Source: Coriobacteriia bacterium
GTDB taxonomy: Bacteria > Actinomycetota > Coriobacteriia > Coriobacteriales > QAMH01
Reading direction: 5' to 3'
Length of the DNA: 64,000 nt
Assembly (NCBI GenBank): GCA_003149935.1
Contig: QAMH01000010.1
Location: forward strand, 14,827 to 78,826
The translations under genes were made by a program, and so were the position numbers. Positions 1,715-61,762 of the stretch are shown here, in pieces. Position 1 is the stretch's first letter, and the number at the start of each line of letters is the position of its first letter. The notes under the pieces are model-generated. The model worked only from the letters and a program-made list of their open reading frames with translations. It made no database searches and was not told the DNA's origin.

Positions 1715-1794
1715 TCGGGATTCGCCATTATTTGGTTGATGCCGATATCGGGATTCGCCATAATAGGGCCAATACCGATATCGGGATTCGCCAT
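1715..1794. repeat. 33-bp tandem repeat, about 2.4 copies, core TCGGGATTCGCCAT
   Basis: TCGGGATTCGCCAT occurs at 1715-1728, 1748-1761 and 1781-1794, exactly 33 bp apart. Copies 2 and 3 share the longer CCGATATCGGGATTCGCCAT. The last copy abuts the GGAGG RBS of the next gene. Confidence 0.9.
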
Positions 1795-1805
1795 TGGAGG
1801 CAAAG

Positions 1806-3164
1806 ATGCATCGTAACGCCATGGCTAGACTTATCGCATGGAAAGATGACCTTCGCAGAAAGCCGCTCATCATCAACGGGGCAAGGCAGGTAGGGAAGAC
1901 TTGGCTTGCGTTGGAATTCGGGAAGACTCATTTTGAGCAAGTCGCCCATGTAGTCTTTCTGGACAACGAGGAGATGCAGCGCGCTTTTGAAAGAAGCCTT
2001 GACCCAGATCGGTTGCTCACTATCATCGGTGCCGCGACAGGCACGAACCCACAATCGGGAGACGTCCTCGTCTTTCTGGATGAAATCCAAGAATGCCCCC
2101 GGGCGCTGACATCCCTCAAGCGCTTCTGCGAGGAAAGACCCGAGATTCCCGTTATCGCTGCGGGCTCCCTCCTTGGACTTGCCCTCAATCGTGCAACGGA
2201 CACAGCTCCCAATGGAGCCTCCTGGCCTGTAGGCAAAGTAAACTACCTTGACTTGCATCCAATGGCATTCGACGAGTACCTCGAAGCTCTGGGACAGGGG
2301 CAGTTCGCGGACATCCTCAGGTCAGGCGATATGGAGATGGCAGACGCCTTTCACGAGCGTCTCGAAGAACATCTGAAGACATACATGTACGTGGGGGGAA
2401 TGCCCGAGGCTGTTACGGAGTACGTGGAAAGCGGAGATTTCGAACGCGTGCGTCAAGTGCAGACAGAGCTCATCAACGGATACGAACGCGACTTTGCAAA
2501 GCACGTGCCCAACCCAACCACGACCGAGCGAATCAGGCAAACGTGGAAATCAGTCCCCAGACAACTTGCCCGTGAAAGCGACATGAAGCGCTTTACCTAT
2601 GCAGCGATAGAGGAGCATGCGCGCGGCCGTGACTATCGTGATGCAGTAGCATGGCTCATCGACGCCGGACTCGTGACGAAAGTCGAGCGCATATCGAAAC
2701 CGGGAATACCCTTGGCAGGATATGCGGACAGCTCCTATTTCAAGCTCTACCTTCTCGACATCGGATTGCTGGGTGCAATGACCTCGCTTGACGCGAGCTC
2801 CATCATCATGGGGAACAAGCTATTCACAGAGTACAAGGGTGCTTACGCAGAGCAGTACGTCTGCCAACAGCTCGTGTCAACCAATTCGTGTGTCCCCTAT
2901 TATTGGTCGGCAGATGGGAAGAACAAAAAGGGCGAAGTAGACTTCGTCGTGCAGAATGGTGCTTCGGTTTTGCCAGTCGAAGTCAAGGCCGAGGAAAACG
3001 TCAGGGGCTCAAGCATCGCCAACTTCGCAAAACGCTATGACATACAGAAATCCGTACGCTTCTCTGCTAAACCTTATAAAGACCAGGGCTGGCTTGTCAA
3101 CGTCCCCTTGAACATGGCGGAATTTCTGTTCAAGGTGCCCGCCTTGCGTGATGGTGCCATGTAA
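1806..3164 (+). CDS. AAA-family ATPase of the AAA_14/DUF4143 type
   Basis: Track ORF starts at TTG 1794. ATG 1806 sits 5 nt after GGAGG. Walker A GARQVGKTW, Walker B LVFLDEIQ. The C-terminal part is typical of DUF4143 proteins (recognition from memory). Confidence 0.8.
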   Translation: MHRNAMARLIAWKDDLRRKPLIINGARQVGKTWLALEFGKTHFEQVAHVVFLDNEEMQRAFERSLDPDRLLTIIGAATGTNPQSGDVLVFLDEIQECPRALTSLKRFCEERPEIPVIAAGSLLGLALNRATDTAPNGASWPVGKVNYLDLHPMAFDEYLEALGQGQFADILRSGDMEMADAFHERLEEHLKTYMYVGGMPEAVTEYVESGDFERVRQVQTELINGYERDFAKHVPNPTTTERIRQTWKSVPRQLARESDMKRFTYAAIEEHARGRDYRDAVAWLIDAGLVTKVERISKPGIPLAGYADSSYFKLYLLDIGLLGAMTSLDASSIIMGNKLFTEYKGAYAEQYVCQQLVSTNSCVPYYWSADGKNKKGEVDFVVQNGASVLPVEVKAEENVRGSSIANFAKRYDIQKSVRFSAKPYKDQGWLVNVPLNMAEFLFKVPALRDGAM

Positions 3165-3270: not shown

Positions 3271-5010
3271 ATGGCGCAACGCTCGGCACGGCAGATGAGC
3301 GTCGACGAGCTGCGCACGCAGATCTCCCAGCGCCTGCGCTCCAATGCCGCCTTTAGCAAAACCGTCTACCAAGACCAGCCCATCATCATGACGGGTAGCC
3401 AGCTCAAGAGCTTCGTGCCGGATGCCATCCGCGAGGCCCGCCAGCTCGCGAAGCAGGGTTACGCACGTAATCTCAGCGTCGTCGACGTCTTTTACGAGCA
3501 AGCGCGGCTCCTTGCCGGTTACGAGGACGACTTCGAATTCATCGGCACGTTTTCGCATTACTACCCCAGCTACGAGGACATGAGCAACGAGCAGCTACGC
3601 GGCTATTTTGCGTGGCGCACCAAGGTACGTCACGGCAACATCGAGCAAGGCTCGCTCTCCTTTGCCTACGTCTACCTCTACGAGCTTATCAACCTCATCG
3701 GCGTCTCAAGCGCGCAGGACGCCTATGACACGCTGCTCGCCTTCGGCACGGCGTACCGCCGCTTCGACACGCGCTTCGGCCAGCTCTTCGATACCTGGCT
3801 CGATGATTTCGTCATCTACTACGGCCTGGATGCAGGCTTGCTGCGCACGCGCTCGTTCGCCAAGCGCGATGCCGCCTTCGACGTGCTGCTGCACCATGAG
3901 ATGCATGCGGAAGGCGAGCTCTTCGATGCGCTTGTCACACTCAGTGGCTATGCGATCATGGACTCCCCCTTCTTCGTCGAGCACGAAGCCGAGCTGCGCC
4001 ACCTCGTTGCGCATGCCTACCGAGCTGCCGCCCAGCATCACGCCAAGCTCAAGACCACGCTACCCGCCAAGCTTGCCGGACGCCTCAAGAACGAACGCCT
4101 CTGGCTGTTCGAACGGGCCGTCTTCGCCAACCCACTCAACATTACAAGCGCCGAGTACCAGATCAGTCCCCACGACACCGTCTATTGTCGGGGCGCAGCC
4201 TGGTTCCGCACGCGCTACGAGAATCTCGAATATCCAATCCCCTGGGTCACCCAGCTGCTCGAGACTTGCGAGTGCATTCTGCGCGATGTCTACGCATACC
4301 CCAACACGCTCGAGCGCAAGCTCACAACCAAGTACCTGCTCAAGGCCGTCGAGACGCGGGCAAGTGAGCTCGCCGAGGAGACACGCCTGCGCGAGGAACG
4401 GGCCGTGCATATCGATTTTTCGCAGCTCGACCACATCCGCAAAGCAGCGAATGAGACCTGCGAGAAGCTCATCGTGGAGGAAGGGGAAGGGATTTCTCCA
4501 CTCCGCGGCCTTGCGGCCGCTCCGGTCGAAATGACAATAGGGAACGGCGTCCCTGCTGTCATTTCGAGCGTGCGAAGCGAGTCGAGAAATCCTTCCGCCC
4601 CTGCTGCCATTTCGAGCGAAGCGAACGAAGTGAGCGCAGTCGAGAAATCTCGACCCTTACGTTCTGCCTGCTGTGGCGAGGGAGATTTCTCCACTCCGGC
4701 GCTTCGCGCCTCCGGTCGAAATGACAACGGGAGCAGCCCATCCGCCCTCGGTCGAAATGACAGGGGGGACGGCCCATCCGCACCCTCGCTTTCCCCCAAA
4801 GAAATCGAACTTGTCGCATGCCTGCTCTCCGGCGGCTCGGTGCGCGAGTTCGAGCGCGCGCATGCCTGCATGGCATCCGTGCTCGTCGACTCCATCAACG
4901 ACAAGCTCTACGACGAGTTCGCCGATATCTGCATAGACGCCACCGGCGACGAGCCCGCCATCATCGAAGACTACGCCCCCGAGCTGCGCACGCTGCTCGG
5001 CCTGTCCTGA
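3271..5010 (+). CDS. sngA: TerB-N/TerB-C domain protein, Shango SngA-like
   Basis: Track ORF starts at TTG 3238. ATG 3271 follows AAGGAG by 6 nt. The N-terminal block MSNEQLRGYFAWRTKVRHGNIEQGSLSFAYVYLYELINLIG matches the TerB-N pattern. The C-terminal blocks IDFSQLDHIRKAANETCEKL and LVDSINDKLYDEFADICIDATGDEP match TerB-C style segments (memory). Confidence 0.7.
   Translation: MAQRSARQMSVDELRTQISQRLRSNAAFSKTVYQDQPIIMTGSQLKSFVPDAIREARQLAKQGYARNLSVVDVFYEQARLLAGYEDDFEFIGTFSHYYPSYEDMSNEQLRGYFAWRTKVRHGNIEQGSLSFAYVYLYELINLIGVSSAQDAYDTLLAFGTAYRRFDTRFGQLFDTWLDDFVIYYGLDAGLLRTRSFAKRDAAFDVLLHHEMHAEGELFDALVTLSGYAIMDSPFFVEHEAELRHLVAHAYRAAAQHHAKLKTTLPAKLAGRLKNERLWLFERAVFANPLNITSAEYQISPHDTVYCRGAAWFRTRYENLEYPIPWVTQLLETCECILRDVYAYPNTLERKLTTKYLLKAVETRASELAEETRLREERAVHIDFSQLDHIRKAANETCEKLIVEEGEGISPLRGLAAAPVEMTIGNGVPAVISSVRSESRNPSAPAAISSEANEVSAVEKSRPLRSACCGEGDFSTPALRASGRNDNGSSPSALGRNDRGDGPSAPSLSPKEIELVACLLSGGSVREFERAHACMASVLVDSINDKLYDEFADICIDATGDEPAIIEDYAPELRTLLGLS
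4489..4762. repeat. Cluster of 5 F1-family short repeats (TGTCATTTCGAGCG...GTCGAGAAATC and its inverse GAGATTTCTCC...GGTCGAAATGACA) lying in frame inside sngA-like CDS
   Basis: Units at 4489-4536 (inverse), 4557-4592, 4605-4652 (forward), 4681-4726 and 4745-4762 (inverse). The same family forms the intergenic array at 25612-25896. Confidence 0.85.
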
Positions 5011-5020
5011 AGGAGCTGTC

Positions 5021-6367
5021 ATGGCCACCAAGATCCCCAAACGCATCGCATCGACCGTGCTCAACTCCCTTAAGGGCGGCGTCGTGCCACGTGTCGGCCT
5101 GCCCTACGTCGCGGTCGGTCGTGAGGCGGAGATCGATGCGCTGCTCCACGACGTCGACATCATCGCCGACGGCGGGGCAACCTTCCGCTTCATCGTCGGC
5201 AAATACGGAAGCGGCAAGAGCTTCCTGCTGCAAACCATCCGCAACTATGCGATGGATCGTAACTTCGTCGTCGTCGATGCCGACCTCTCCCCCGAGCGCC
5301 GTCTCCAGGGCAGCCACGGCCAGGGCCTTGCCACCTACAAGGAGCTCATCCGCAACATGTCGACCAAGACACGCCCCGAAGGTGGCGCGCTCACGCTCAT
5401 CCTCGATCGTTGGATTTCGAGCGTGCAGCAAGACGTGCTTGCCGAAGGGCTCGAGCCCGGTACGGAAGCTTTCGCGCAGCGTGTCGAGATGCGCATCCAC
5501 GAAGTGGTGAGCACGCTCTCGGAGCTCGTGCACGGCTTTGACTTCGCGCAGCTGCTCGTCATGTACTACCGCGCCTACGTCAACGATGACGAGGACACCA
5601 AAGCCAAGGTCATCAAATGGTTCAGGGGCGAATACGCCAACAAGACCGAGGCCAAGACCGAGCTCGGCATCCGCATCGTCATCTCCGACGACGATTGGTA
5701 CGAGTACATCAAGCTTTTCGCATCCTTCCTCGTGCAAGCGGGCTACGCCGGGTTGCTCGTGCTCATCGACGAGCTCGTGAACATCTACAAGGTGCCCAAC
5801 TCCATCACGCGCCAGTACAACTACGAGAAGATCCTCACGATGTACAACGATACGCTGCAGGGTAAGGCGCAGCATCTGGGCATCATCATGGGTGGCACGC
5901 CCCAGTGCGTCGAGGACAAGCGCCGTGGCGTCTACTCGTACGAGGCACTGCGCAGCCGTCTGGCCGAAGGGCGCTTCGCCAGCCAGCAATACAAGGACAT
6001 GCTCGCCCCCATCATCCGTCTCGTGCCACTCACGCACGAGGAGCTCTTCGTACTCGCCGAGAAGCTCACCGCCATCCACGCGCAGCTCTTCGATTACGAG
6101 CCACGCCTGACCGACGATCAGCTCGTCCAGTTCATCAAGACGGAGTTCGAGCGTGTGGGAGCAACCACGCACATCACGCCCCGCGAGGTCATCCGCGATT
6201 TCATCGAGCTGCTCGACATCATGTACCAGAATCCCGACGCGCAGATGGACGAGCTGCTGGCAAGCGAAGCATTCACCAGCGCCATTGCGCCCGATGCTTC
6301 GAGTAACGTGAGCGTGGCTGCCGAGACAAGCGACCGGCAAGAGAACTTCTTCGAGTTCACGCTCTAG
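5021..6367 (+). CDS. sngB: P-loop ATPase of the DUF2791 (BrxC/BrxD-like) family, Shango SngB-like
   Basis: 448 aa. Walker A GKYGSGKSF, Walker B LLVLIDELV. Starts 10 nt after the sngA-like stop. Confidence 0.75.
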   Translation: MATKIPKRIASTVLNSLKGGVVPRVGLPYVAVGREAEIDALLHDVDIIADGGATFRFIVGKYGSGKSFLLQTIRNYAMDRNFVVVDADLSPERRLQGSHGQGLATYKELIRNMSTKTRPEGGALTLILDRWISSVQQDVLAEGLEPGTEAFAQRVEMRIHEVVSTLSELVHGFDFAQLLVMYYRAYVNDDEDTKAKVIKWFRGEYANKTEAKTELGIRIVISDDDWYEYIKLFASFLVQAGYAGLLVLIDELVNIYKVPNSITRQYNYEKILTMYNDTLQGKAQHLGIIMGGTPQCVEDKRRGVYSYEALRSRLAEGRFASQQYKDMLAPIIRLVPLTHEELFVLAEKLTAIHAQLFDYEPRLTDDQLVQFIKTEFERVGATTHITPREVIRDFIELLDIMYQNPDAQMDELLASEAFTSAIAPDASSNVSVAAETSDRQENFFEFTL

Positions 6368-6370
6368 GCG

Positions 6371-8695
6371 GTGATCATGGACGTCTTTGCCTCATATGCG
6401 CCCTTCATCCAGGACTTCATCTACCGTAACGGCTGGGAAAGCCTGCGTTCGGTGCAAGTCGCCGCCGCCGATGCCATCTTCAATTCCGAGGACAACGTCT
6501 TGCTGGCCGCATCCACGGCCTCCGGCAAGACCGAGGCTGCGTTCTTCCCCATACTCTCCCAGCTTGATGAGGACCCCTCCTCGAGCGTCGGCGTGCTCTA
6601 CATCGCACCGCTCAAGGCGCTCATCAACGACCAGTTCGGCCGTCTCACCGAGCTCTGCGAGGAGGCCGAGATTCCCGTCTGGCGTTGGCACGGCGACGTC
6701 GCGCAATCACGCAAGAGCAAGCTGCTCAAGCACCCGAGCGGCATCTTGCAGATCACGCCGGAATCCCTCGAAGCGCTGCTCCTGCACAAGCATTCCCACA
6801 TCCCCGCGCTCTTCGGCGACCTGCGCTTCATCGTCATCGACGAGATTCACTCCCTCATGCGCGCCGACCGCGGTGGTCAATGTCTCTGCCTCATCGAACG
6901 CCTCTCGCGTCTCGCATCATGCAGCCCGCGACGCATCGGGTTGTCGGCAACCATCGGCGACCTCGAGCTGGCCGGACGCTTCCTTGGCGCCGGCTCGGGT
7001 CGCGACACCATCATCCCCCGCATCGAGGACACGCAGCAGCGCTGGCGCCTGTCCATGTCTCACTTCTTCGTGGGAGAGGGCGCCGAGGAAATGGGTGAGA
7101 CACATTGGACAGGTACATCTGTCTCATTGGCAGAATCCAATGAGACAGATGTACCTGTCCAATGTGTCTCACCCTCCCCGCCCGAACCCGCCACCGATGC
7201 CGCTCCCGCAGGCGCGGACCTCGGCCTCGGCTACATCTTCGAGCATACGCGTGGCAAGAAGTGCCTCGTCTTCTGCAACTCGCGCGAGGAGGCCGAAGGC
7301 GTCACCACCACGCTACGTCGCTATTGCGAGGCCAACAACGAGCCCGACCGTTTCCTCATCCATCACGGCAACCTCTCGTCGGCCGTGCGCGAGAGCGCGG
7401 AAGACGTCATGCGCGACGAGGAGCTCGACCAGACGACCGTCACCACGGCCACCCTCGAACTCGGCATCGACATCGGTCGCCTCGAGCGCGCCTTCCAGAT
7501 CGATGCCCCCTTCACGGTGAGCGCGTTCTTGCAGCGCATGGGGCGTACGGGACGGCGAGGCTCGCCCCCGGAGATGTGGTTCGTCATGCGCGAGGACCGC
7601 GCCGAGCCGCGCACCACCCTGGGCGCGACCATCCCCTGGAAGCTCCTGCAGGGCATCGCACTCGTACAACTCTACCTCGAGGATCGCTGGGTCGAGCCAC
7701 CGCGACTCGACCGCCTGCCCTACAGCCTGCTCTACCACCAGACCATGGCAACCCTTGCCAGCGGGGGCGAGATGACGCCGGCCGAGCTCGCAGCCCGCGT
7801 CCTTACCCTCGGGTACTTTCATCGCGTGAGCAGCGAGGACTTCCGCGTCCTGCTACACCACCTCATCGACATCGACCACATCCAGCTCACCGAGGAGGGC
7901 GGTCTCATCGTCGGCATCGCAGGCGAGCGCGTCATCAACAGCTACCGCTTCTACGGCGTCTTCCAGGAAAACGAGGAGTACACCGTTCGCAACGAGTCCC
8001 AGGAGCTCGGCACCATCGTGCTGCCACCGCCCGTGGGCGAAAAGCTCGCCATAGCCGGTGCCACCTGGCTCGTCGAGGAGGTCGACCACAAGCGCCACCT
8101 CGTCTACGCCACGCAAGTAAAGGGCCAAGTGCCGGCCTACTTTGGCGACTGCCCCGGCGACATCAACACGGTCGTACTCGAGCGCATGCTGCGCGTGCTC
8201 ATGGAAGATGCGGATTATCCCTACCTCATGGACAACGCGCGCGGCAGGCTCGCCCAGGCCCGCTCGACCGCACGCAACGCCCATCTCGACCACATCCCGC
8301 TCGTTCGTCTGGGTGGCAACACCTGGGGGCTCTTCCCCTGGCTTGGCAGCTACGCCTTCCTCGCACTCGAGCGTTTCCTCAAGATCAAGTGCGCCGACCA
8401 GCTCCAACTCAAGGGTCTGGACTCGTCGCGTCCCTATTTCATGGAGTTTCGCATGAAGGGCGACGAGCAGCTCTTCTACGATGTGCTCGCGGAGCAGGCA
8501 ACCACACCGTTCGATCCCCTTGACCTCGTCTATCCCGACGAAATCCCCATCTGGGAGAAATACGACGAATACGTGCCCATCGAGCTCATCCGCAAGGGCT
8601 TCGCCGAGAGTGTCCTCGACATCGACGGCATGCTCAAGCGCGTGCGCCAGTGGTGCGGCCTGCCAGACGAGAAGCCGCTGCAGCTCCCGGGCTAG
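6371..8695 (+). CDS. sngC: Superfamily-2 DEAD/DEAH-box (Lhr-like) helicase, Shango SngC-like
   Basis: 774 aa. Motif I ASTASGKTEAAF, Ia YIAPLKALINDQ, II VIDEIHS, III SATIG, VI QRMGRTGRRG. GTG 6371 or ATG 6377 is the start, 3 nt after the sngB-like stop. Confidence 0.85.
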   Translation: MIMDVFASYAPFIQDFIYRNGWESLRSVQVAAADAIFNSEDNVLLAASTASGKTEAAFFPILSQLDEDPSSSVGVLYIAPLKALINDQFGRLTELCEEAEIPVWRWHGDVAQSRKSKLLKHPSGILQITPESLEALLLHKHSHIPALFGDLRFIVIDEIHSLMRADRGGQCLCLIERLSRLASCSPRRIGLSATIGDLELAGRFLGAGSGRDTIIPRIEDTQQRWRLSMSHFFVGEGAEEMGETHWTGTSVSLAESNETDVPVQCVSPSPPEPATDAAPAGADLGLGYIFEHTRGKKCLVFCNSREEAEGVTTTLRRYCEANNEPDRFLIHHGNLSSAVRESAEDVMRDEELDQTTVTTATLELGIDIGRLERAFQIDAPFTVSAFLQRMGRTGRRGSPPEMWFVMREDRAEPRTTLGATIPWKLLQGIALVQLYLEDRWVEPPRLDRLPYSLLYHQTMATLASGGEMTPAELAARVLTLGYFHRVSSEDFRVLLHHLIDIDHIQLTEEGGLIVGIAGERVINSYRFYGVFQENEEYTVRNESQELGTIVLPPPVGEKLAIAGATWLVEEVDHKRHLVYATQVKGQVPAYFGDCPGDINTVVLERMLRVLMEDADYPYLMDNARGRLAQARSTARNAHLDHIPLVRLGGNTWGLFPWLGSYAFLALERFLKIKCADQLQLKGLDSSRPYFMEFRMKGDEQLFYDVLAEQATTPFDPLDLVYPDEIPIWEKYDEYVPIELIRKGFAESVLDIDGMLKRVRQWCGLPDEKPLQLPG
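7093..7174. repeat. Perfect 38-bp-stem inverted repeat (6-nt loop) inside sngC-like CDS, TGAGACA/TGTCTCA family
   Basis: 7093-7130 is the exact reverse complement of 7137-7174 (checked base by base). Translated in frame as ...GETHWTGTSVSLAESNETDVPVQCVSP... between helicase motif III and the second RecA-like domain. Confidence 0.95.
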
Positions 8696-8768: not shown

Positions 8769-8815
8769 TGCAAAAATCGCCTAAAAATGCAAAAATCGCC
8801 TAAAAATGCAAAAGC
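8769..8815. repeat. 19-bp tandem duplication TGCAAAAATCGCCTAAAAA x2 plus partial third copy
   Basis: 8769-8787 equals 8788-8806, and 8807-8813 restarts the unit. Each junction creates an ATG (8787 and 8806), and these are in different frames. Confidence 0.9.
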
Positions 8816-10383: not shown

Positions 10384-10420
10384 AAAATGAGACAATATCT
10401 CTGAGCAATTGTCTCATTTT
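10384..10420. repeat. Single unit of TGAGACA palindromic repeat family (13-bp stem, 11-nt loop)
   Basis: AAAATGAGACAAT (10384-10396) pairs with ATTGTCTCATTTT (10408-10420). The loop sequence resembles the other family members. Confidence 0.85.
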
Positions 10421-10434
10421 CGACGGCGAGGAGC

Positions 10435-19817: not shown

Positions 19818-19890
19818 GATGAGACAGTTGCTCAGGGACGTTGTCTCATTTCTTCATAATGAGACAACGTCCCTGAGCAACTGTCTCATT
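19818..19890. repeat. Double (head-to-head) unit of TGAGACA palindromic repeat family; 32-bp perfect stem, 7-nt loop
   Basis: 19819-19850 is the exact reverse complement of 19858-19889 (checked base by base). Each half is itself a 9-bp-stem hairpin, AATGAGACA-N15-TGTCTCATT. Confidence 0.95.
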
Positions 19891-19906
19891 TTCCCGGTCA
19901 TCGCAC

Positions 19907-25611: not shown

Positions 25612-25896
25612 GCCCCCCCCCTTGTCATTTCGAGCGGAGCGGACGGGGCCGCGCCCCCCTGTCATTTCGAGCGAGGCGAACGGGGCCGCGCCCCCCCCTG
25701 TCATTTCGAGCGGAGCGAACGAAGTGAGCGGAGTCGAGAAATCTCGGTCTTTCGCTTAATAGACAGCAGCGGTGGAGATTTCTCCACTCCGGCGCTACGC
25801 GCCTTCGGTCGAAATGACAAGAGACAAACCTTACGGCCCCTTCGGTCGGAATGACAAGGGGTAGGCCTTACGGCCCCTTCGGTCGGAATGACAAAA
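25612..25896. repeat. F1-family repeat array: three direct units then three inverted units (large imperfect palindrome)
   Basis: TGTCATTTCGAGCG starts at 25623, 25660 and 25699 (37/39-bp spacing). Inverse units end in TCGAAATGACA at 25818 and TCGGAATGACA at 25856 and 25893. Confidence 0.9.
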
Positions 25897-27053: not shown

Positions 27054-27171
27054 CTCGAGTCCTTCCTCGCAGCGTGTTTGTGCCCGATTATACGCCAATG
27101 TGCCAAGAGGCCTGACCCCCTGACACATTCACGCTTGCAAACGAGCAGGTAGCCGTCAACTTCCCCACCAC

Positions 27172-45021: not shown

Positions 45022-45498
45022 GTCTCCTTACAAACAAAGAAAGCGGGGCAAATCCCACTTTCTCCTTCACTCTTCTAGCTCTAACGGCGGCGTAGAAAGC
45101 CATACCGTGGCTGCAAGCAGCCTCGAAGCACACCGAATGGACGCTTCGACAAGCCATCCTATTGTACTCGGATTCATGCACAAGTCAATGAGACAAAAAC
45201 CCGCCAGGGCGCTTTTGCCTCGTCGTGTCACAGGGGTCAGACCCCGTGACACATTGGCGGCATTGCGACAAGGATGACGAGTGCGCGACCGCTTCCGGAC
45301 GCTCCGTGCCAAGAAACCCCGCCGCGTGACCGCCAAAAGAGGCGTTTCTTCCCGTTTTGCCAAGCCAGGCGGTCACTGACCGTGAACTTTGGCATCCGGC
45401 GGTCAACAGCCCAACATCCTTGGCAACGCGTCTCCGAAAATGGTCATGCGCCCGCCATCCTTGGCAAGCGTCGCGCACCTGTCGACAGACAAATCCCG

Positions 45499-49632: not shown

Positions 49633-49665
49633 AATGAGACAGTTACTCAGAGACGCTGTCTCACT
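49633..49665. repeat. Single unit of TGAGACA palindromic repeat family
   Basis: AATGAGACA-GTTACTCAGAGACGC-TGTCTCACT. Lies in a divergent promoter region. Confidence 0.8.
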
Positions 49666-49722
49666 GGAATCCATGAGGCTATACTTCAGTCGATATCCAA
49701 ACTTCGCTCAAGGAGGCACGTC

Positions 49723-50770: not shown

Positions 50771-52195
50771 ATGGAACGCGAGAACGCATGGAAGAGCTAT
50801 AGCGACAAGGATCTCGATGAGCTCGAGAAACTCAGCAACGATTACATCGAGTTCATCTCGGAGAACAAGACCGAGCGCGAATGCGTGAGCGCCTCGATCG
50901 CTCTGGCCGAAAAGGCCGGGTACAAGTCGCTCGCCAAGGCCATCAAGAAGCAGCGCAAGCTCAAGGCCGGCGACAAGGTCTACGCCCAGACCCACGGCAA
51001 GGCCCTCATCTTGGCGGTGCTCGGTACCGACCCGCTCGAAGACGGCTTCAACATCTTGGGCGCCCACATCGACTCGCCTCGCCTCGACGCCAAGCAAAAC
51101 CCGCTCTACGAGAACACGGACATCGCGCTGCTCGACACGCACTATTACGGCGGCATCAAGAAGTACCAGTGGGTCACGCTCCCGCTGGCTATCCACGGCG
51201 TCATCGCCCTCAAGGCGGGCAAGTCCATCGAGGTCCGCGTCGGCGAAGACCCATCCGACCCCGTGTTCTGCATCTCGGACCTCCTCCCCCATCTGGGGCA
51301 AAAGCAGATGGAGAAGAATGCCAAGGAGGTCATCGATGCTGAAGACCTCGATGTGATCGTGGGCAGCAGGCCGCTTCTCTTCGAGAAGGACAAGCTCAAC
51401 GACGACTCTCCCGCATGGGAGAAGGTCGCCGAGAAGGAGCCGGTCAAGGCATCCGTGCTCAAGTACCTTGCCGAGTACTACGGCATCGAGGAGGAGGATT
51501 TCCTCTCCGCCGAGCTCGAAATCGTTCCAGCCGGTCGTGCCCGCGAGATGGGCTTCGACCGCTCCATGGTCATCGGTTACGGCCAGGACGACCGCGTCTG
51601 CGCCTACACGTCGCTCGTCGCCCAGCTCGCCATCGAAAATCCCAAGCGCACCGCCGTCACCGTGCTGGTCGACAAGGAGGAGATCGGTAGCGTGGGCGCT
51701 ACGGGCATGGAGTCACTGTTCTTCGAGAACACCATCGCCGAGATCATGGAGCTCGCCGGCGAAGGCGGCCAGCTCAAGCTACGCCGCGCGCTCGGTGCGT
51801 GCAAGATGCTGTCCTCCGACGTCTCCGCCGCACTCGACCCCTGCTACGCGAGCGTCTTCGAGCCCAAGAACGCCGCCTACATGGGTCGCGGCCTCGTCTT
51901 CAACAAGTACACGGGCGCACGCGGCAAGAGCGGCAGCAACGACACGTCGGCGGAGTTCGTCGCCGAGGTGCGCCGCGTCATGGACGGTGCGGGCGTCGCG
52001 TTTCAGACCGCCGAGCTCGGTCGCGTCGACATCGGCGGTGGCGGTACGATCGCCTACATCCCGGCCAAGTACGACATGGACGTCATCGACAGTGGCGTGG
52101 CCGTGCTCTCGATGCACGCACCCTGGGAGATCACGAGCAAGGCCGACATCTACGAGGCCCGCAAGGGTTACGAGGCGTTCCTGAAGAACGCATAG
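50771..52195 (+). CDS. M18-family aminopeptidase
   Basis: ATG 50771 follows GGAGGG. GAHIDSPRLD and DKEEIGSVGATG metal-ligand blocks. Confidence 0.85.
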   Translation: MERENAWKSYSDKDLDELEKLSNDYIEFISENKTERECVSASIALAEKAGYKSLAKAIKKQRKLKAGDKVYAQTHGKALILAVLGTDPLEDGFNILGAHIDSPRLDAKQNPLYENTDIALLDTHYYGGIKKYQWVTLPLAIHGVIALKAGKSIEVRVGEDPSDPVFCISDLLPHLGQKQMEKNAKEVIDAEDLDVIVGSRPLLFEKDKLNDDSPAWEKVAEKEPVKASVLKYLAEYYGIEEEDFLSAELEIVPAGRAREMGFDRSMVIGYGQDDRVCAYTSLVAQLAIENPKRTAVTVLVDKEEIGSVGATGMESLFFENTIAEIMELAGEGGQLKLRRALGACKMLSSDVSAALDPCYASVFEPKNAAYMGRGLVFNKYTGARGKSGSNDTSAEFVAEVRRVMDGAGVAFQTAELGRVDIGGGGTIAYIPAKYDMDVIDSGVAVLSMHAPWEITSKADIYEARKGYEAFLKNA

Positions 52196-52200
52196 GTGAC
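52081..52200. repeat. Left 120-bp direct repeat (aminopeptidase 3' end; putative attL)
   Basis: 115/120 identical to 61141-61260 by manual alignment. Confidence 0.95.
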
Positions 52201-61019: not shown

Positions 61020-61140
61020 AAAGCATGCCTCCTTCGGATAATGTATGCTCTTCTAGAATTAATTATTAGTGCGCGAGGCGCTGGTGCATAGGCGCTTTTT
61101 TTCATAGAGCCTATGTAATAACTGCATAGCTAGCATATAA

Positions 61141-61255
61141 CGTCATCGACAGTGGCGTGGCCGTGCTCTCAATGCACGCTCCCTGGGAGATCACGAGCAA
61201 GGCCGACATCTACGAGGCCCGCAAGGGCTACGAGGCGTTCCTCAAGAACGCGTAG
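61141..61255 (+). pseudogene. Orphan 3' fragment (last 37 codons plus stop) of the M18 aminopeptidase gene; right direct repeat extends to 61260
   Basis: Reads VIDSGVAVLSMHAPWEITSKADIYEARKGYEAFLKNA*, identical in protein to the end of the intact gene. There is no upstream coding continuity. Confidence 0.9.
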
Positions 61256-61269
61256 GTGACTGACACTCG

Positions 61270-61302
61270 AATGAGACAGTTGCTCTGAGCAACTGTCTCA
61301 TT
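61270..61302. repeat. Collapsed TGAGACA-family palindrome (16-bp arms), probable bidirectional terminator
   Basis: AATGAGACAGTTGCTC-T-GAGCAACTGTCTCATT. It equals the outer arms of the 19818-19890 element with the centre missing, and overlaps the PIN gene stop codon. Confidence 0.85.
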
Positions 61303-61762
61303 AGACATCCAGGAGTGCGGCCATCAGCTCCTTATCCTCATGATCGACCGTGAGGAGGAACTCCTTGGCCGTGACGCTCTTCACCTTGCTGCCCACAAAG
61401 GCGTCCTCATCACGTGTGATAATGAAATCAGCCCCGTTCAGCTCTGCGCACGCACGGACGAGCCCGTCTTCGAAGTCGGGCTCGTTGCTCCGAAGGGAGC
61501 GGTCGCATTCCTCTGCGGAAACGGGAGCAACCGCCACGAGGCCCAGAAGGTTCTCGAGCGCCTCGCGCGCAATCGCCTCGCTGTAAGCCCGACACAAGAT
61601 GTAGTAGGCGTCGTTGAAGGAAGTCGCTGCCGCAAATCCGTAATCTCCACTACCGTTGCACCACCTCAGCAACGCAAGCGCTTCGTCATGCTGAGGACGA
61701 TTGGGAATAACACTATCCAGGAGAATATTGGTGTCGAGCAAGATCCTATACATCGCGCTCAC
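61301..61762 (-). CDS. PIN-domain toxin (VapC-like)
   Basis: MYRILLDTNILLD... and the C-terminal ITRDEDAF acidic residues. The start may be ATG 61753. Confidence 0.8.
   Translation of the reverse strand: MSAMYRILLDTNILLDSVIPNRPQHDEALALLRWCNGSGDYGFAAATSFNDAYYILCRAYSEAIAREALENLLGLVAVAPVSAEECDRSLRSNEPDFEDGLVRACAELNGADFIITRDEDAFVGSKVKSVTAKEFLLTVDHEDKELMAALLDV

What the first reader, a model, noticed from the sequence alone, without database searches (positions are those of the whole stretch)
4489..4762. An array of intergenic-type F1 repeats is embedded in frame inside the TerB (sngA-like) gene
About 270 nt of the CDS consist of five units of a short repeat. The forward form is TGTCATTTCGAGCG...GTCGAGAAATC and the inverse form is GAGATTTCTCCACTCCGGCGC...GGTCGAAATGACA. 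The same family builds the non-coding array at 25612-25896.

The frame stays open. The repeats are translated as a low-complexity linker (..VEMTIGNGVPAVISSVRSESRNPSAPAAISSEANEVSAVEKSRP..GRNDNG..GRNDRG..). This linker lies between the LD..I....ET block and the final L.DSIN....D..GD block of the TerB-C region.

Either a REP/MITE-like element invaded a defence gene and was tolerated as a linker, or the gene is a disguised pseudogene. Repeat-number changes here could also switch the gene on or off.
Basis: seen in the sequence. Interest (0 to 1): 0.6.

Follow-up and report, generated by a model that had tools for sequence, protein, structure and literature searches.

The report
Palindromic repeat array translated inside SngA
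A cluster of short hairpin-forming "junk" DNA repeats, a family also found in several distant bacterial phyla, sits in frame inside an intact anti-phage gene and is read as a floppy, length-variable spacer between two protein domains; this is a known kind of event (as in Rickettsia) seen here in a new repeat family and host gene.

Summary
Window 4489-4781 lies inside the sngA gene (3271-5010) of a complete Shango sngABC operon. It consists of the same palindromic repeat family as the non-coding array at 25612-25896.

The array has no in-frame stop. It encodes residues about 407-503, which AlphaFold predicts as fully disordered. It splits the TerB_C Pfam match.

An orthologue 97-99% identical in flanking DNA (L003) has an unrelated linker, although its genome carries the repeat elsewhere. 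Nine other alleles carry different numbers and orders of the units, and all are in frame. All 15 tandem unit spacings in sngA are 36, 39 or 48 nt, against 32 of 91 multiples of three elsewhere. The C-terminal block downstream has dN/dS of 0.2-0.5.

This supports [quoted passage not shown]. It does not support the pseudogene reading or on/off switching by unit number.

The family is REP/BIME-like, with two hairpin unit types and compensatory changes. It occurs in Coriobacteriia, Clostridia, Negativicutes, Bacteroidia, Planctomycetes and Chloroflexi, and it also sits in frame in a dnaX gene and a DNA methyltransferase gene. It is absent from Rfam and from the phage and plasmid collections searched. 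The closest precedent is the Rickettsia palindromic elements.

The parts
3271..5010 (+). sngA coding sequence (579 aa; TerB_N plus split TerB_C), the host gene of the array
   Evidence: ORF. Pfam TerB_N 71-254 and TerB_C 369-573. PADLOC SngA E=2e-59. Full-length alignment with 33 orthologues.
4489..4536 (+). Unit 1, R-type hairpin unit (GGGATTTCTCCAC - small hairpin GCGGCC..GGCCGC - GGTCGAAATGACA); read as GISPLRGLAAAPVEMT
   Evidence: Motif map, repeats, fold
4537..4556 (+). Short palindromic spacer (GGGAACGGCGTCCC) at the centre of the first large hairpin (4484-4597)
   Evidence: Inverted repeat I6; DNA fold
4557..4593 (+). Unit 2, short L-type unit (TGTCATTTCGAGCG ... AGTCGAGAAATCCT); read as VISSVRSESRNP
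4605..4651 (+). Unit 3, L-type unit (TGCCATTTCGAGCGAAGCGAACGAAGTGAGCGCAGTCGAGAAATCTC); read as AISSEANEVSAVEKS; left half of the canonical doublet
   Evidence: 91% identical to 25692-25746 (family D16)
4652..4681 (+). Variable central loop of the doublet
   Evidence: loop of 15-45 nt, unrelated in sequence between copies
4682..4726 (+). Unit 4, R-type unit (GAGATTTCTCCAC - hairpin GGCGCttcGCGCC - GGTCGAAATGACA); read as DFSTPALRASGRNDN; right half of the doublet
   Evidence: 92% identical to 25769-25820 (family D17); RNA fold of 4600-4730 gives -54.5 kcal/mol, z=-3.25
4727..4781 (+). Extra terminal unit: second 36-nt tandem copy of the GGTCGAAATGACA end plus spacer; read as GSSPSALGRNDRGDGPS
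   Evidence: Tandem Repeats Finder, 4713-4781, period 36; family D1
25612..25896 (+). Non-coding array of the same family: three left terminal units, one doublet, two right terminal units, with spacings of 37/39/37/37 nt. It lies between a CCG-domain gene (stop 25899) and a molybdopterin oxidoreductase gene (start 25543), both on the minus strand.
5021..6367 (+). sngB (BrxC/BrxD-type ATPase), intact
   Evidence: PADLOC SngB E=1.5e-194; Pfam PF10923
6371..8695 (+). sngC (DEAD/DEAH helicase), intact
   Evidence: PADLOC SngC E=1e-271

Best explanation
The 4489-4781 stretch is a cluster of REP/BIME-like palindromic repeat units. There are four complete hairpin units in alternating orientation plus one extra terminal unit. 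The cluster occupies the whole inter-domain linker of an otherwise intact and functional sngA gene.

It is transcribed and translated with the gene. It produces a disordered spacer of about 95 residues between helix 384-399 of the TerB_C region and the conserved C-terminal helical block (from residue 509).

The linker tolerates almost any sequence, so selection acts only on keeping the frame open. That explains the absence of stops in the used frame and the unit lengths that are multiples of three. It also explains why strains differ by whole in-frame units and why the effect is on linker length, not on gene on/off state.

The array reached this position by insertion and/or by homologous recombination between alleles. 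The linker is a recombination junction, and near-identical gene backbones carry unrelated linkers.

Shown: presence, identity with the intergenic family, open frame, presence/absence and copy-number polymorphism, predicted disorder, and purifying selection downstream. Inferred: that the full-length protein is made and active, and how the units are copied. I suspect a REP-type single-strand hairpin mechanism with an unidentified enzyme, plus slippage or recombination between units.
For: 1. **Same family as the non-coding copies.**. Almost every base of the repeat-bearing linkers is hit by copies from unrelated loci.
2. **Host gene intact.** It matches SngA, SngB and SngC models. It has both TerB domains. 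All 95 invariant columns of a 34-sequence alignment are kept.
3. **Orthologue without the repeats.** L003 is 97% identical in the 1.2-kb N-terminal DNA and 99% identical in the C-terminal DNA, but has an unrelated linker of about 72 aa. Its assembly, CABURF01, carries the family elsewhere (L061; tandem units at L003:257).
4. **Allelic series, all in frame**. Here A> / <A is the terminal motif and B> / <B the inner motif, in forward or inverted form:
   - window: <B<A | A>B> | A>B><B<A | <A (579 aa)
   - L131: one more A>, one fewer <A (580 aa)
   - L002: one more A> (591 aa)
   - L001 (585 aa), L004, L005, L006 and L008: other arrangements
   - L007: a single doublet
5. **Unit spacings.** 15 of 15 in sngA are multiples of 3, against 32 of 91 elsewhere. 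The genic array is open in 2 of 6 frames, the intergenic array in 0 of 6.
6. **Predicted disorder.** AlphaFold gives pLDDT of about 28 and no secondary structure for residues 400-503, with confident helices on both sides.
7. **Selection downstream.** dN/dS of the 69 codons after the array is 0.21-0.50 in all 20 informative pairs of repeat-bearing alleles.
8. **Same behaviour in other genes.** The family is in frame in the dnaX linker (L073, residues 645-691). It is also in frame between the methylase and TaqI_C domains of a Bacteroidia N6-methyltransferase (L100, L014), where the extra units are 30 nt apart.
Against: - No direct evidence of the protein: there are no proteomic or ribosome-profiling data.
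- Most alleles came from catalogues of called proteins, which favours intact genes. Only one repeat-bearing allele (L131) came from a DNA-level scan.
- Copy numbers come from short-read metagenome assemblies, which can collapse or mis-join repeats.
- The 15 spacings are not independent, because related alleles share them.
- The dN/dS estimate rests on only 69 codons.
- Strong hairpins in the mRNA (-54 kcal/mol for the core) could affect expression in ways not tested.
- No mobilising enzyme was found.
Confidence: 0.75

Rival explanations
1. Adaptive hypervariable linker. The repeats, and the palindromes in the other alleles, are kept because they generate rapid diversity in length, sequence or orientation in a region of SngA that matters in the arms race. 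Examples would be escape from a phage inhibitor or tuning of the coupling between sensor and C-terminal module. This can be true together with the main explanation.
For: - Backbones that are 96-99% identical carry unrelated linkers.
- N- and C-terminal parts have different nearest relatives (L130: N-part 96-98% identical to window, L131 and L004, C-part 96% to L129; L004: N-part 98%, C-part 88%). Recombination therefore breaks at the linker.
- A 122-nt linker segment is inverted between L129 and L132 (89% identity), flanked by 17-nt inverted repeats and open in both orientations.
- At least five linker types occur among orthologues above 70% identity.
Against: - The linker has no conserved residue, is predicted disordered, and is short (about 30-45 aa) and unrelated in more distant orthologues (P0047, P0048). 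This is what neutral drift in an unconstrained spacer looks like.
- The same repeat family sits in a housekeeping dnaX linker, where no arms race is expected.
Confidence: 0.15
2. Contingency locus. Gain or loss of repeat units shifts the frame and switches sngA on and off.
For: Unit number does vary between closely related alleles (window, L131, L002, L001). Non-coding arrays of the family have units of 37 or 38 nt, which would shift the frame.
Against: - All 15 tandem spacings inside sngA are multiples of three (36, 39, 48).
- All ten repeat-bearing alleles are in frame.
- The truncated homologues found (P0036, P0041) are frameshifted in linkers without the repeat, not in repeat arrays.
Confidence: 0.04
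3. Disguised pseudogene. The array disrupted sngA, and the open frame is a chance survival.
For: A GC-rich stretch of about 290 nt can stay open by chance. A second frame of the array is also open.
Against: - The reading frame is the same on both sides of the array.
- The C-terminal block is under purifying selection in repeat-bearing alleles.
- The arrangement is found in several independent assemblies and in clusters with many members (24 sequences for P0001).
- sngB and sngC are intact.
Confidence: 0.03
4. Nucleic-acid-level function. The two large hairpins (4484-4597 and 4601-4735) act in the mRNA or in single-stranded DNA. They could serve as a processing or stability element, a translational pause site, or a replication or recombination signal, so that the peptide is a by-product.
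For: - Folding is stronger than in shuffles: DNA -81.4 kcal/mol, z=-5.4; core RNA -54.5 kcal/mol, z=-3.25.
- The family keeps compensatory base pairs, so the hairpin form is under selection somewhere in its life cycle.
Against: - That selection is explained by the element's own propagation.
- Orthologues work with linkers that lack these hairpins (L003, L132, L129).
- There is no T-tract terminator: 2 weak matches against 0.8 expected.
- There is no orientation bias relative to neighbouring genes: 17 against 14.
Confidence: 0.08

Closest known systems
Rickettsia palindromic elements (RPE; Ogata et al. 2000, as summarised in the MITE review PMC10969869)
   Same: - Short palindromic repeats of about 100-150 bp are present in many copies.
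- They are inserted in frame into unrelated protein-coding genes that stay functional.
- They are translated as an extra peptide at positions compatible with the fold.
- Orthologues without the insert exist.
   Different: - The sequence family and the hosts are different (gut Coriobacteriia and other phyla, not Rickettsia).
- Here it is an array of several units in alternating orientation, not a single element.
- Unit number varies in frame between strains.
- The array replaces a whole linker that is also a recombination hot spot.
- The host gene is an anti-phage defence gene.
REP / BIME / REPIN elements of proteobacteria
   Same: - The units are imperfect hairpins of about 30-50 nt.
- There are two unit types, which alternate in inverted orientation and form doublets and larger clusters.
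- Most copies are intergenic, including copies inside operons.
- Compensatory changes keep the stem.
   Different: - There is no GTAG head.
- No RAYT transposase was found nearby.
- This copy is intragenic and translated.
- The conserved motifs are shared across phyla, whereas REP families are usually species- or genus-specific (my own knowledge).
Intragenic MITEs, ERIC and BOX elements that give in-frame fusions (PMC10969869)
   Same: A small non-autonomous repeat inside a coding sequence contributes codons.
   Different: Terminal inverted repeats with target-site duplications and a parent insertion sequence were not identified here. The palindrome continues outward with lineage-specific sequence.
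Intragenic invertons (Chanin et al., PMC10028968)
   Same: In the repeat-free sngA alleles, a 122-nt segment bounded by 17-nt inverted repeats occurs in both orientations and recodes the linker. Palindromic arrays like the one in the window are potential inversion substrates.
   Different: Inversion was seen only between different metagenome assemblies, not as a mixture within one strain. No invertase was identified. It was not shown for the window's own array.
Simple-sequence contingency loci (phase variation by slipped-strand mispairing)
   Same: Tandem units inside a gene differ in number between strains.
   Different: The units are 36-48 nt long and are multiples of three, so the frame is preserved.

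Membership tests
Shango defence system, SngA component | Protein with TerB_N and TerB_C domains that matches the SngA model | tested here: met
   Pfam TerB_N E=3.5e-27 and TerB_C E=1.6e-16; PADLOC SngA E=2.1e-59 over residues 31-576
Shango defence system, SngA component | Adjacent sngB ATPase and sngC helicase on the same strand | tested here: met
   SngB E=1.5e-194 at 5021-6367; SngC E=1.1e-271 at 6371-8695
Shango defence system, SngA component | Protects against phage | not testable with these tools
   Requires a phage challenge. Defence by Shango was shown for other hosts (10.1101/2022.05.11.491447; 10.1101/2022.11.11.516204).
In-frame palindromic insertions of the RPE kind | Element is a multi-copy palindromic repeat also found outside genes | tested here: met
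In-frame palindromic insertions of the RPE kind | Host reading frame continues through the element, and orthologues without it exist | tested here: met
   Open frame; L003, L132 and L129 lack it
In-frame palindromic insertions of the RPE kind | Insert lies where the fold tolerates it | tested here: met
   Prediction only: pLDDT below 50 for residues 400-503 between confident helices
In-frame palindromic insertions of the RPE kind | Sequence belongs to one of the Rickettsia RPE families | not tested
   No RPE sequences were compared. The host phylum and motifs differ, so I claim analogy, not membership.
REP/BIME (REPIN) elements | Short imperfect hairpin units with compensatory stem changes | tested here: met
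   Pentamers stay complementary in six sub-families. The x:y pair is G:C in 163 units and C:G in 143 units, with 6 non-pairs.
REP/BIME (REPIN) elements | Two unit types alternating in inverted orientation within clusters | tested here: met
   L-type GAGC/GTCGA and R-type GACC/GTGGA; arrangement in the window and its alleles
REP/BIME (REPIN) elements | Associated RAYT (Y1/HUH) transposase gene flanked by the repeats | tested here: inconclusive
   None among the 13 window ORFs checked or the ten most recurrent neighbour families in 120 loci. Whole genomes were not searched.
REP/BIME (REPIN) elements | Extragenic location | tested here: not met
   This copy is inside a coding sequence, although most copies of the family are not (26 of 129 lie in open stretches of at least 600 nt, most of them spurious)
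MITE | Terminal inverted repeats with a target-site duplication and a related autonomous insertion sequence | not tested
   The element ends could not be defined, because the palindrome extends outward in a lineage-specific way. No parent element was seen.
Phase-variable contingency locus | Repeat unit length not divisible by three, and out-of-frame alleles in the population | tested here: not met
   Units of 36, 39 and 48 nt; 10 of 10 repeat-bearing alleles in frame

The most novel reading that the evidence does not exclude
The repeat is an undescribed REP/BIME-like family whose conserved motifs are shared across at least six phyla. It has two unit types, and each unit is a hairpin with a co-varying 5-bp stem, conserved tandem G.A mismatches and an optional side hairpin. 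It is chromosomal, with no match in the phage and plasmid collections searched.

It is repeatedly taken up as an in-frame, length-variable disordered linker in multi-domain proteins (SngA, a restriction-modification methylase, DnaX). In SngA the palindromes make the linker a hot spot for allele swapping and intragenic inversion.
Probability: 0.4. Interest if true: 0.65.

Novelty: new variant of a known kind. Interest (0 to 1): 0.5.

Why it matters
- **Annotation.** A repeat array in the middle of a defence gene need not mean a dead gene. Linker length in SngA is evidently free to vary.
- **Protein evolution.** This extends the Rickettsia phenomenon of selfish palindromes translated inside genes to common gut Actinobacteria and Bacteroidia. 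It adds in-frame copy-number variation of the units.
- **Mobile-element biology.** The same 12-13-nt motifs with compensated stems occur in Actinobacteria, Firmicutes, Bacteroidota, Planctomycetota and Chloroflexota. They have no match in Rfam or in the phage and plasmid collections searched. This points to a widespread hairpin-recognising mechanism that has not been identified.
- **Shango.** The system's mechanism is unknown. The natural linker variants show that the N-terminal TerB_N module and the C-terminal TerB_C block can be separated by about 30 to 110 unrelated residues.

Tried and rejected
- **Rfam.** No family at gathering score in the window. None at E up to 10 over 4300-4950. None at E up to 1 on the elements in nine loci from other phyla.
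- **Translated repeat against protein families.** No hit in Pfam or NCBIfam at E up to 10.
- **Literature by motif strings.** Only unrelated primers were found. A REP/RAYT keyword search returned irrelevant papers.
- **Linker peptide against the 5.8-billion protein index.** One hit only, a fragment of the same gene. The result is uninformative, probably because the query is short and low in complexity.
- **Full HMMER scan of 1.84 billion representative proteins.** Three weak hits. P0083 and P0085 are ORFs made of repeat arrays; P0084 is an unrelated repetitive protein. A protein-level census of host genes was therefore not possible.
- **Vector for cross-phylum spread.** No match in 2.9 million viral contigs, in PLSDB plasmids or in INPHARED phages.
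- **Mobilising enzyme.** There is no transposase among the ORFs checked in the window. The recurrent neighbours in 120 loci are ordinary genes such as ABC transporters, leucine-rich-repeat proteins and DUF4143 ATPases.
- **Strand-specific RNA role.** Orientation relative to co-directional neighbour genes is 17 against 14, so there is no bias. The ORF calls behind this count are crude.
- **Internal terminator or promoter.** Nothing beyond chance.
- **Idea that the element is built to be stop-free.** The enrichment is modest: 1.9 against 1.2 open frames of six. Frame openness in sngA is better explained by selection on the host gene.
- **Pairing between the two halves (long hairpin) as the conserved structure.** Rejected as the primary constraint. 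Hybrid doublets keep complementarity within each half but not between halves.
- **Truncated homologues P0036 and P0041 as frameshifts in the repeat.** They are frameshifts in repeat-free linkers.
Full report

Yes. The terminal motif GTCGAAATGACA (up to 1 mismatch) occurs ten times in the 64-kb window. Five copies lie at 4523-4762 and five at 25623-25893. Shuffles give 0.48 expected matches.

The inner motif GAGATTTCTCCACTCCG occurs six times against 0.19 expected. Three copies are in the gene and two in the intergenic array.

The genic stretch aligns colinearly with the + strand of the intergenic array, and the two core blocks are 91-92% identical. Tandem Repeats Finder reports a 36-nt period over 4713-4781.

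**2. The host gene**

- The ORF 3271-5010 encodes a 579-aa protein with TerB_N (71-254) and TerB_C (369-573) domains.
- It matches the PADLOC SngA model (E=2e-59). It is followed by sngB (E=1.5e-194) and sngC (E=1e-271), which makes a complete Shango system.
- Shango is a TerB-containing anti-phage system of unknown mechanism (10.1101/2022.05.11.491447).
- An AlphaFold model built on 34 orthologues gives pLDDT of about 28 and no secondary structure for residues 400-503. Confident helices lie at 384-399 and from 509 onward. The repeat-encoded segment is therefore a predicted disordered linker.

**3. Anatomy of the array**

I use these motif names:

| Name | Sequence |
|---|---|
| A> | TGTCATTTCGAGCG |
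| <A | CGGTCGAAATGACA |
| B> | AGTCGAGAAATCTC |
| <B | GAGATTTCTCCACT |

The window reads <B<A | A>B> | A>B><B<A | <A. As single-stranded DNA it folds into two large hairpins, 4484-4597 and 4601-4735. The energy is -81.4 kcal/mol with z=-5.4. The canonical doublet folded as RNA gives -54.5 kcal/mol with z=-3.25.

Two of six frames over the array are stop-free. The intergenic array has a stop in every frame.

**4. Orthologues: insertion or native sequence?**

Eighty-one homologues were found, and 33 were aligned with the window protein. Everything is conserved except the stretch between '...CEKLIV[ED]E' and 'L[ST]P.E...'. That stretch is hypervariable in length and sequence.

I fetched the DNA of 11 close orthologues.

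*Alleles that carry the repeat.* They differ in unit number and order:

| Allele | Arrangement | Protein length |
|---|---|---|
| L007 | A>B><B<A (one doublet) | 540 aa |
| L004 | A> A>B><B<A | 543 aa |
| L005 | <B<A<A A>A>B> | 548 aa |
| L006 | <B<A<A A>A>A>A>B> | 577 aa |
| L001 | <B<A A>A>A>B><B<A<A | 585 aa |
| L002 | window plus one A> | 591 aa |
| L131 | window plus one A>, minus one <A | 580 aa |
| L008 | <B<A A>B> followed by a second palindrome family | 546 aa |

*Alleles without the repeat.* L003, L132/L133, L129/L134-136 and L130 have no unit of this family.

*The decisive comparison.* L003 is 97% identical to the window over the 1.2-kb N-terminal DNA and 99% identical over the C-terminal DNA. 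Its assembly, CABURF01, carries the family elsewhere (L061; tandem units at L003:257).

BLAST of each linker against all other held DNA covers nearly every base of the repeat-bearing linkers with dozens of hits. The repeat-free linkers get none apart from hits to each other.

**5. Is the gene alive, and could unit number switch it?**

- All ten repeat-bearing alleles are in frame. One of them, L131, came from a DNA-level scan that does not depend on ORF calling.
- Every tandem spacing of terminal motifs inside sngA is 36, 39 or 48 nt (15 of 15). Elsewhere 32 of 91 spacings are multiples of three, which is the chance proportion. The window's own intergenic array has spacings of 37/39/37/37.
- The 69 codons downstream of the array have dN/dS of 0.21-0.50 in all 20 informative pairs of repeat-bearing alleles. 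The C-terminal block is therefore translated and constrained.
- The truncated homologues P0036 and P0041 are frameshifted in repeat-free linkers.

I conclude that unit changes alter linker length, not the frame, and that the pseudogene reading is unlikely.

*Caveats.*
- The spacings are not independent, because related alleles share them.
- Copy numbers rest on short-read assemblies.
- Protein catalogues favour intact genes.

**6. The linker is a rearrangement hot spot**

- N- and C-terminal parts of the gene have different nearest relatives. L130 has an N-part 96-98% identical to window, L131 and L004, but a C-part 96% identical to L129. L004 has an N-part at 98% and a C-part at 88%. Recombination therefore breaks at the linker.
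- Among repeat-free alleles, a 122-nt segment of L129 is the reverse complement of the L132 segment (89% identity). It is bounded by 17-nt inverted repeats and is open in both orientations. This resembles intragenic invertons (PMC10028968), but it was seen only between assemblies.
- L130 carries its own 28-nt perfect inverted repeat and a duplicated block.
- Two metagenome contigs join the N-terminal sngA part to unrelated genes at or within the linker (L137, L138). These may be chimeric assemblies.

**7. What the repeat family is**

*Distribution.* One exact-pattern scan of 185,579 species genomes used GTCGAGAAATCTC-N15-45-GAGATTTCTCCAC. The hits were in Coriobacteriia, Clostridia, Ruminococcus, Dialister, Bacteroidia/Bacteroidales, Phycisphaerae and Thermomicrobiales, with locus GC from 0.43 to 0.69.

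*Architecture.* It is the same everywhere: GTCATTTCGAGC - optional insert - GTCGAGAAATCTC - variable loop - GAGATTTCTCCAC - optional insert, often its own hairpin such as GGCGCttcGCGCC or CCGCatagCGG - GGTCGAAATGAC. The right-hand inserts fold better than shuffles (median z=-1.56).

*The unit is the half element.*
- Its pentamers co-vary and stay complementary in six sub-families: ATTTC/GAAAT, ATGTC/GACAT, ATGTT/AACAT, ACCTC/GAGGT, ATTCC/GGAAT and ATATT/AATAT.
- Hybrid doublets exist whose two halves carry different pentamers. Pairing is therefore within halves.
- Next to the pentamer helix lie conserved tandem G.A/A.G mismatches.
- After those comes a pair x:y that is G:C in 163 units and C:G in 143, with only 6 non-pairs.
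- This gives two unit types that alternate in inverted orientation, like the Y and Z REP units of BIMEs.

*What it did not match.*
- Rfam.
- Viral contigs, plasmids and phages.
- Any printed sequence in the paper library.
- No recurrent transposase was found nearby.
- There is no orientation bias relative to neighbouring genes.

How the family is copied remains unknown. A REP-type mechanism acting on single-stranded hairpins is my inference from the anatomy.

**8. The same family in frame in other genes**

Of 129 elements, 26 lie in open stretches of at least 600 nt, but most of those stretches are spurious in GC-rich DNA. Two cases are real:

- A Coriobacteriia dnaX gene (L073). The element is at residues 645-691, after domain III, and is read in the same frame as in sngA: 'VISSEANEVSAVEKS...DFSTP...RNDN'.
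- A Bacteroidia N6-adenine methyltransferase (L100, L014). The element lies between the methylase and TaqI_C domains, with two extra terminal units 30 nt apart.

In all three host genes the element sits between domains.

**9. Comparison with what is known**

The behaviour matches the Rickettsia palindromic elements. Those are repeats inserted in frame in many genes, with predicted compatibility with the fold (PMC10969869, citing Ogata et al. 2000). The unit organisation matches REP/BIME clusters.

The differences are:
- a new sequence family with cross-phylum motifs;
- an array rather than a single element;
- in-frame unit-number polymorphism;
- replacement of an entire linker in a defence gene that also shows allele swapping and inversion.

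I therefore rate it a new variant of a known kind.

**10. Verdict**

The pseudogene and on/off readings are not. Interest is moderate (0.5). The event itself has precedent, but the repeat family's breadth and structure, and the plasticity of the sngA linker, deserve follow-up.

Noticed in passing
L009-L128 (genome-contig hits); window 4489-4781 and 25612-25896: The repeat's 12-13-nt motifs are shared by genomes of at least six phyla: Coriobacteriia, Clostridia, Negativicutes, Bacteroidia, Planctomycetes and Chloroflexi. There was no match in Rfam, viral contigs, plasmids or phages.
   Followed up: partly
All held loci: The half element is a hairpin with a co-varying 5-bp stem (six complementary variants), conserved tandem G.A mismatches and a G:C / C:G swap that defines two unit types. 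Hybrid doublets show that the halves are separable modules.
   Followed up: yes
L073:2819-5377 (+), element at about 4762-4886: The same repeat doublet lies in frame in the proline/alanine-rich linker of a Coriobacteriia dnaX (DNA polymerase III tau/gamma) gene. It is read in the same frame as in sngA.
   Followed up: partly
L100:2374-4227 (-) and L014:6511-7998 (+): A doublet plus two extra 30-nt terminal units lie in frame between the N6-methylase and TaqI_C specificity domains of a Bacteroidia restriction-modification methyltransferase. This is a second defence-type gene hosting the family.
   Followed up: partly
L129:4267-4388 versus L132:2845-2966: In sngA alleles without the repeat, a 122-nt linker segment occurs in opposite orientations (89% identity). 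It is bounded by 17-nt inverted repeats and open in both orientations, which looks like an intragenic inversion.
   Followed up: partly
sngA loci L004 and L130 versus window, L131 and L129: The N- and C-terminal parts of sngA have different closest relatives, so alleles are mosaics with the breakpoint in the linker.
   Followed up: partly
L008:2086-2160; window 27097-27132 and 45232-45255: A second palindromic repeat (AATGTG.CA..GGGGTCAGACCCC..TG.CACATT type) is also translated inside the sngA linker of allele L008. It has non-coding copies in the window.
   Followed up: partly
window 10386-10421, 19818-19893, 49633-49668, 61270-61305: Another hairpin repeat family (AATGAGACA...TGTCTCATT, about 36 nt) is scattered through the window.
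   Followed up: no
window 1715-1795 and 8769-8813: Tandem repeats flank the region: 2.5 copies of 33 nt just upstream of the DUF4143 ATPase gene that precedes sngA, and 2.4 perfect copies of 19 nt (TGCAAAAATCGCCTAAAAA) just downstream of sngC.
   Followed up: no
L001, L004, L008, L129 and L130 versus L005 and L007 versus window 1794-3164: The Shango operon has different upstream neighbours in different genomes: TetR plus a molybdopterin oxidoreductase, carB, or a DUF4143 AAA ATPase. This suggests that the operon moves as a unit.
   Followed up: no
L137:325-3027 and L138:1501-4209: Two metagenome contigs continue from the sngA N-terminal part, at or within the linker, into unrelated coding sequence (a membrane protein; a PolC-like polymerase). 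These are either chimeric assemblies or real rearrangements.
   Followed up: no
window 52080-52200 and 61140-61260: A 121-nt direct repeat at 96% identity, with the copies 9 kb apart.
   Followed up: no
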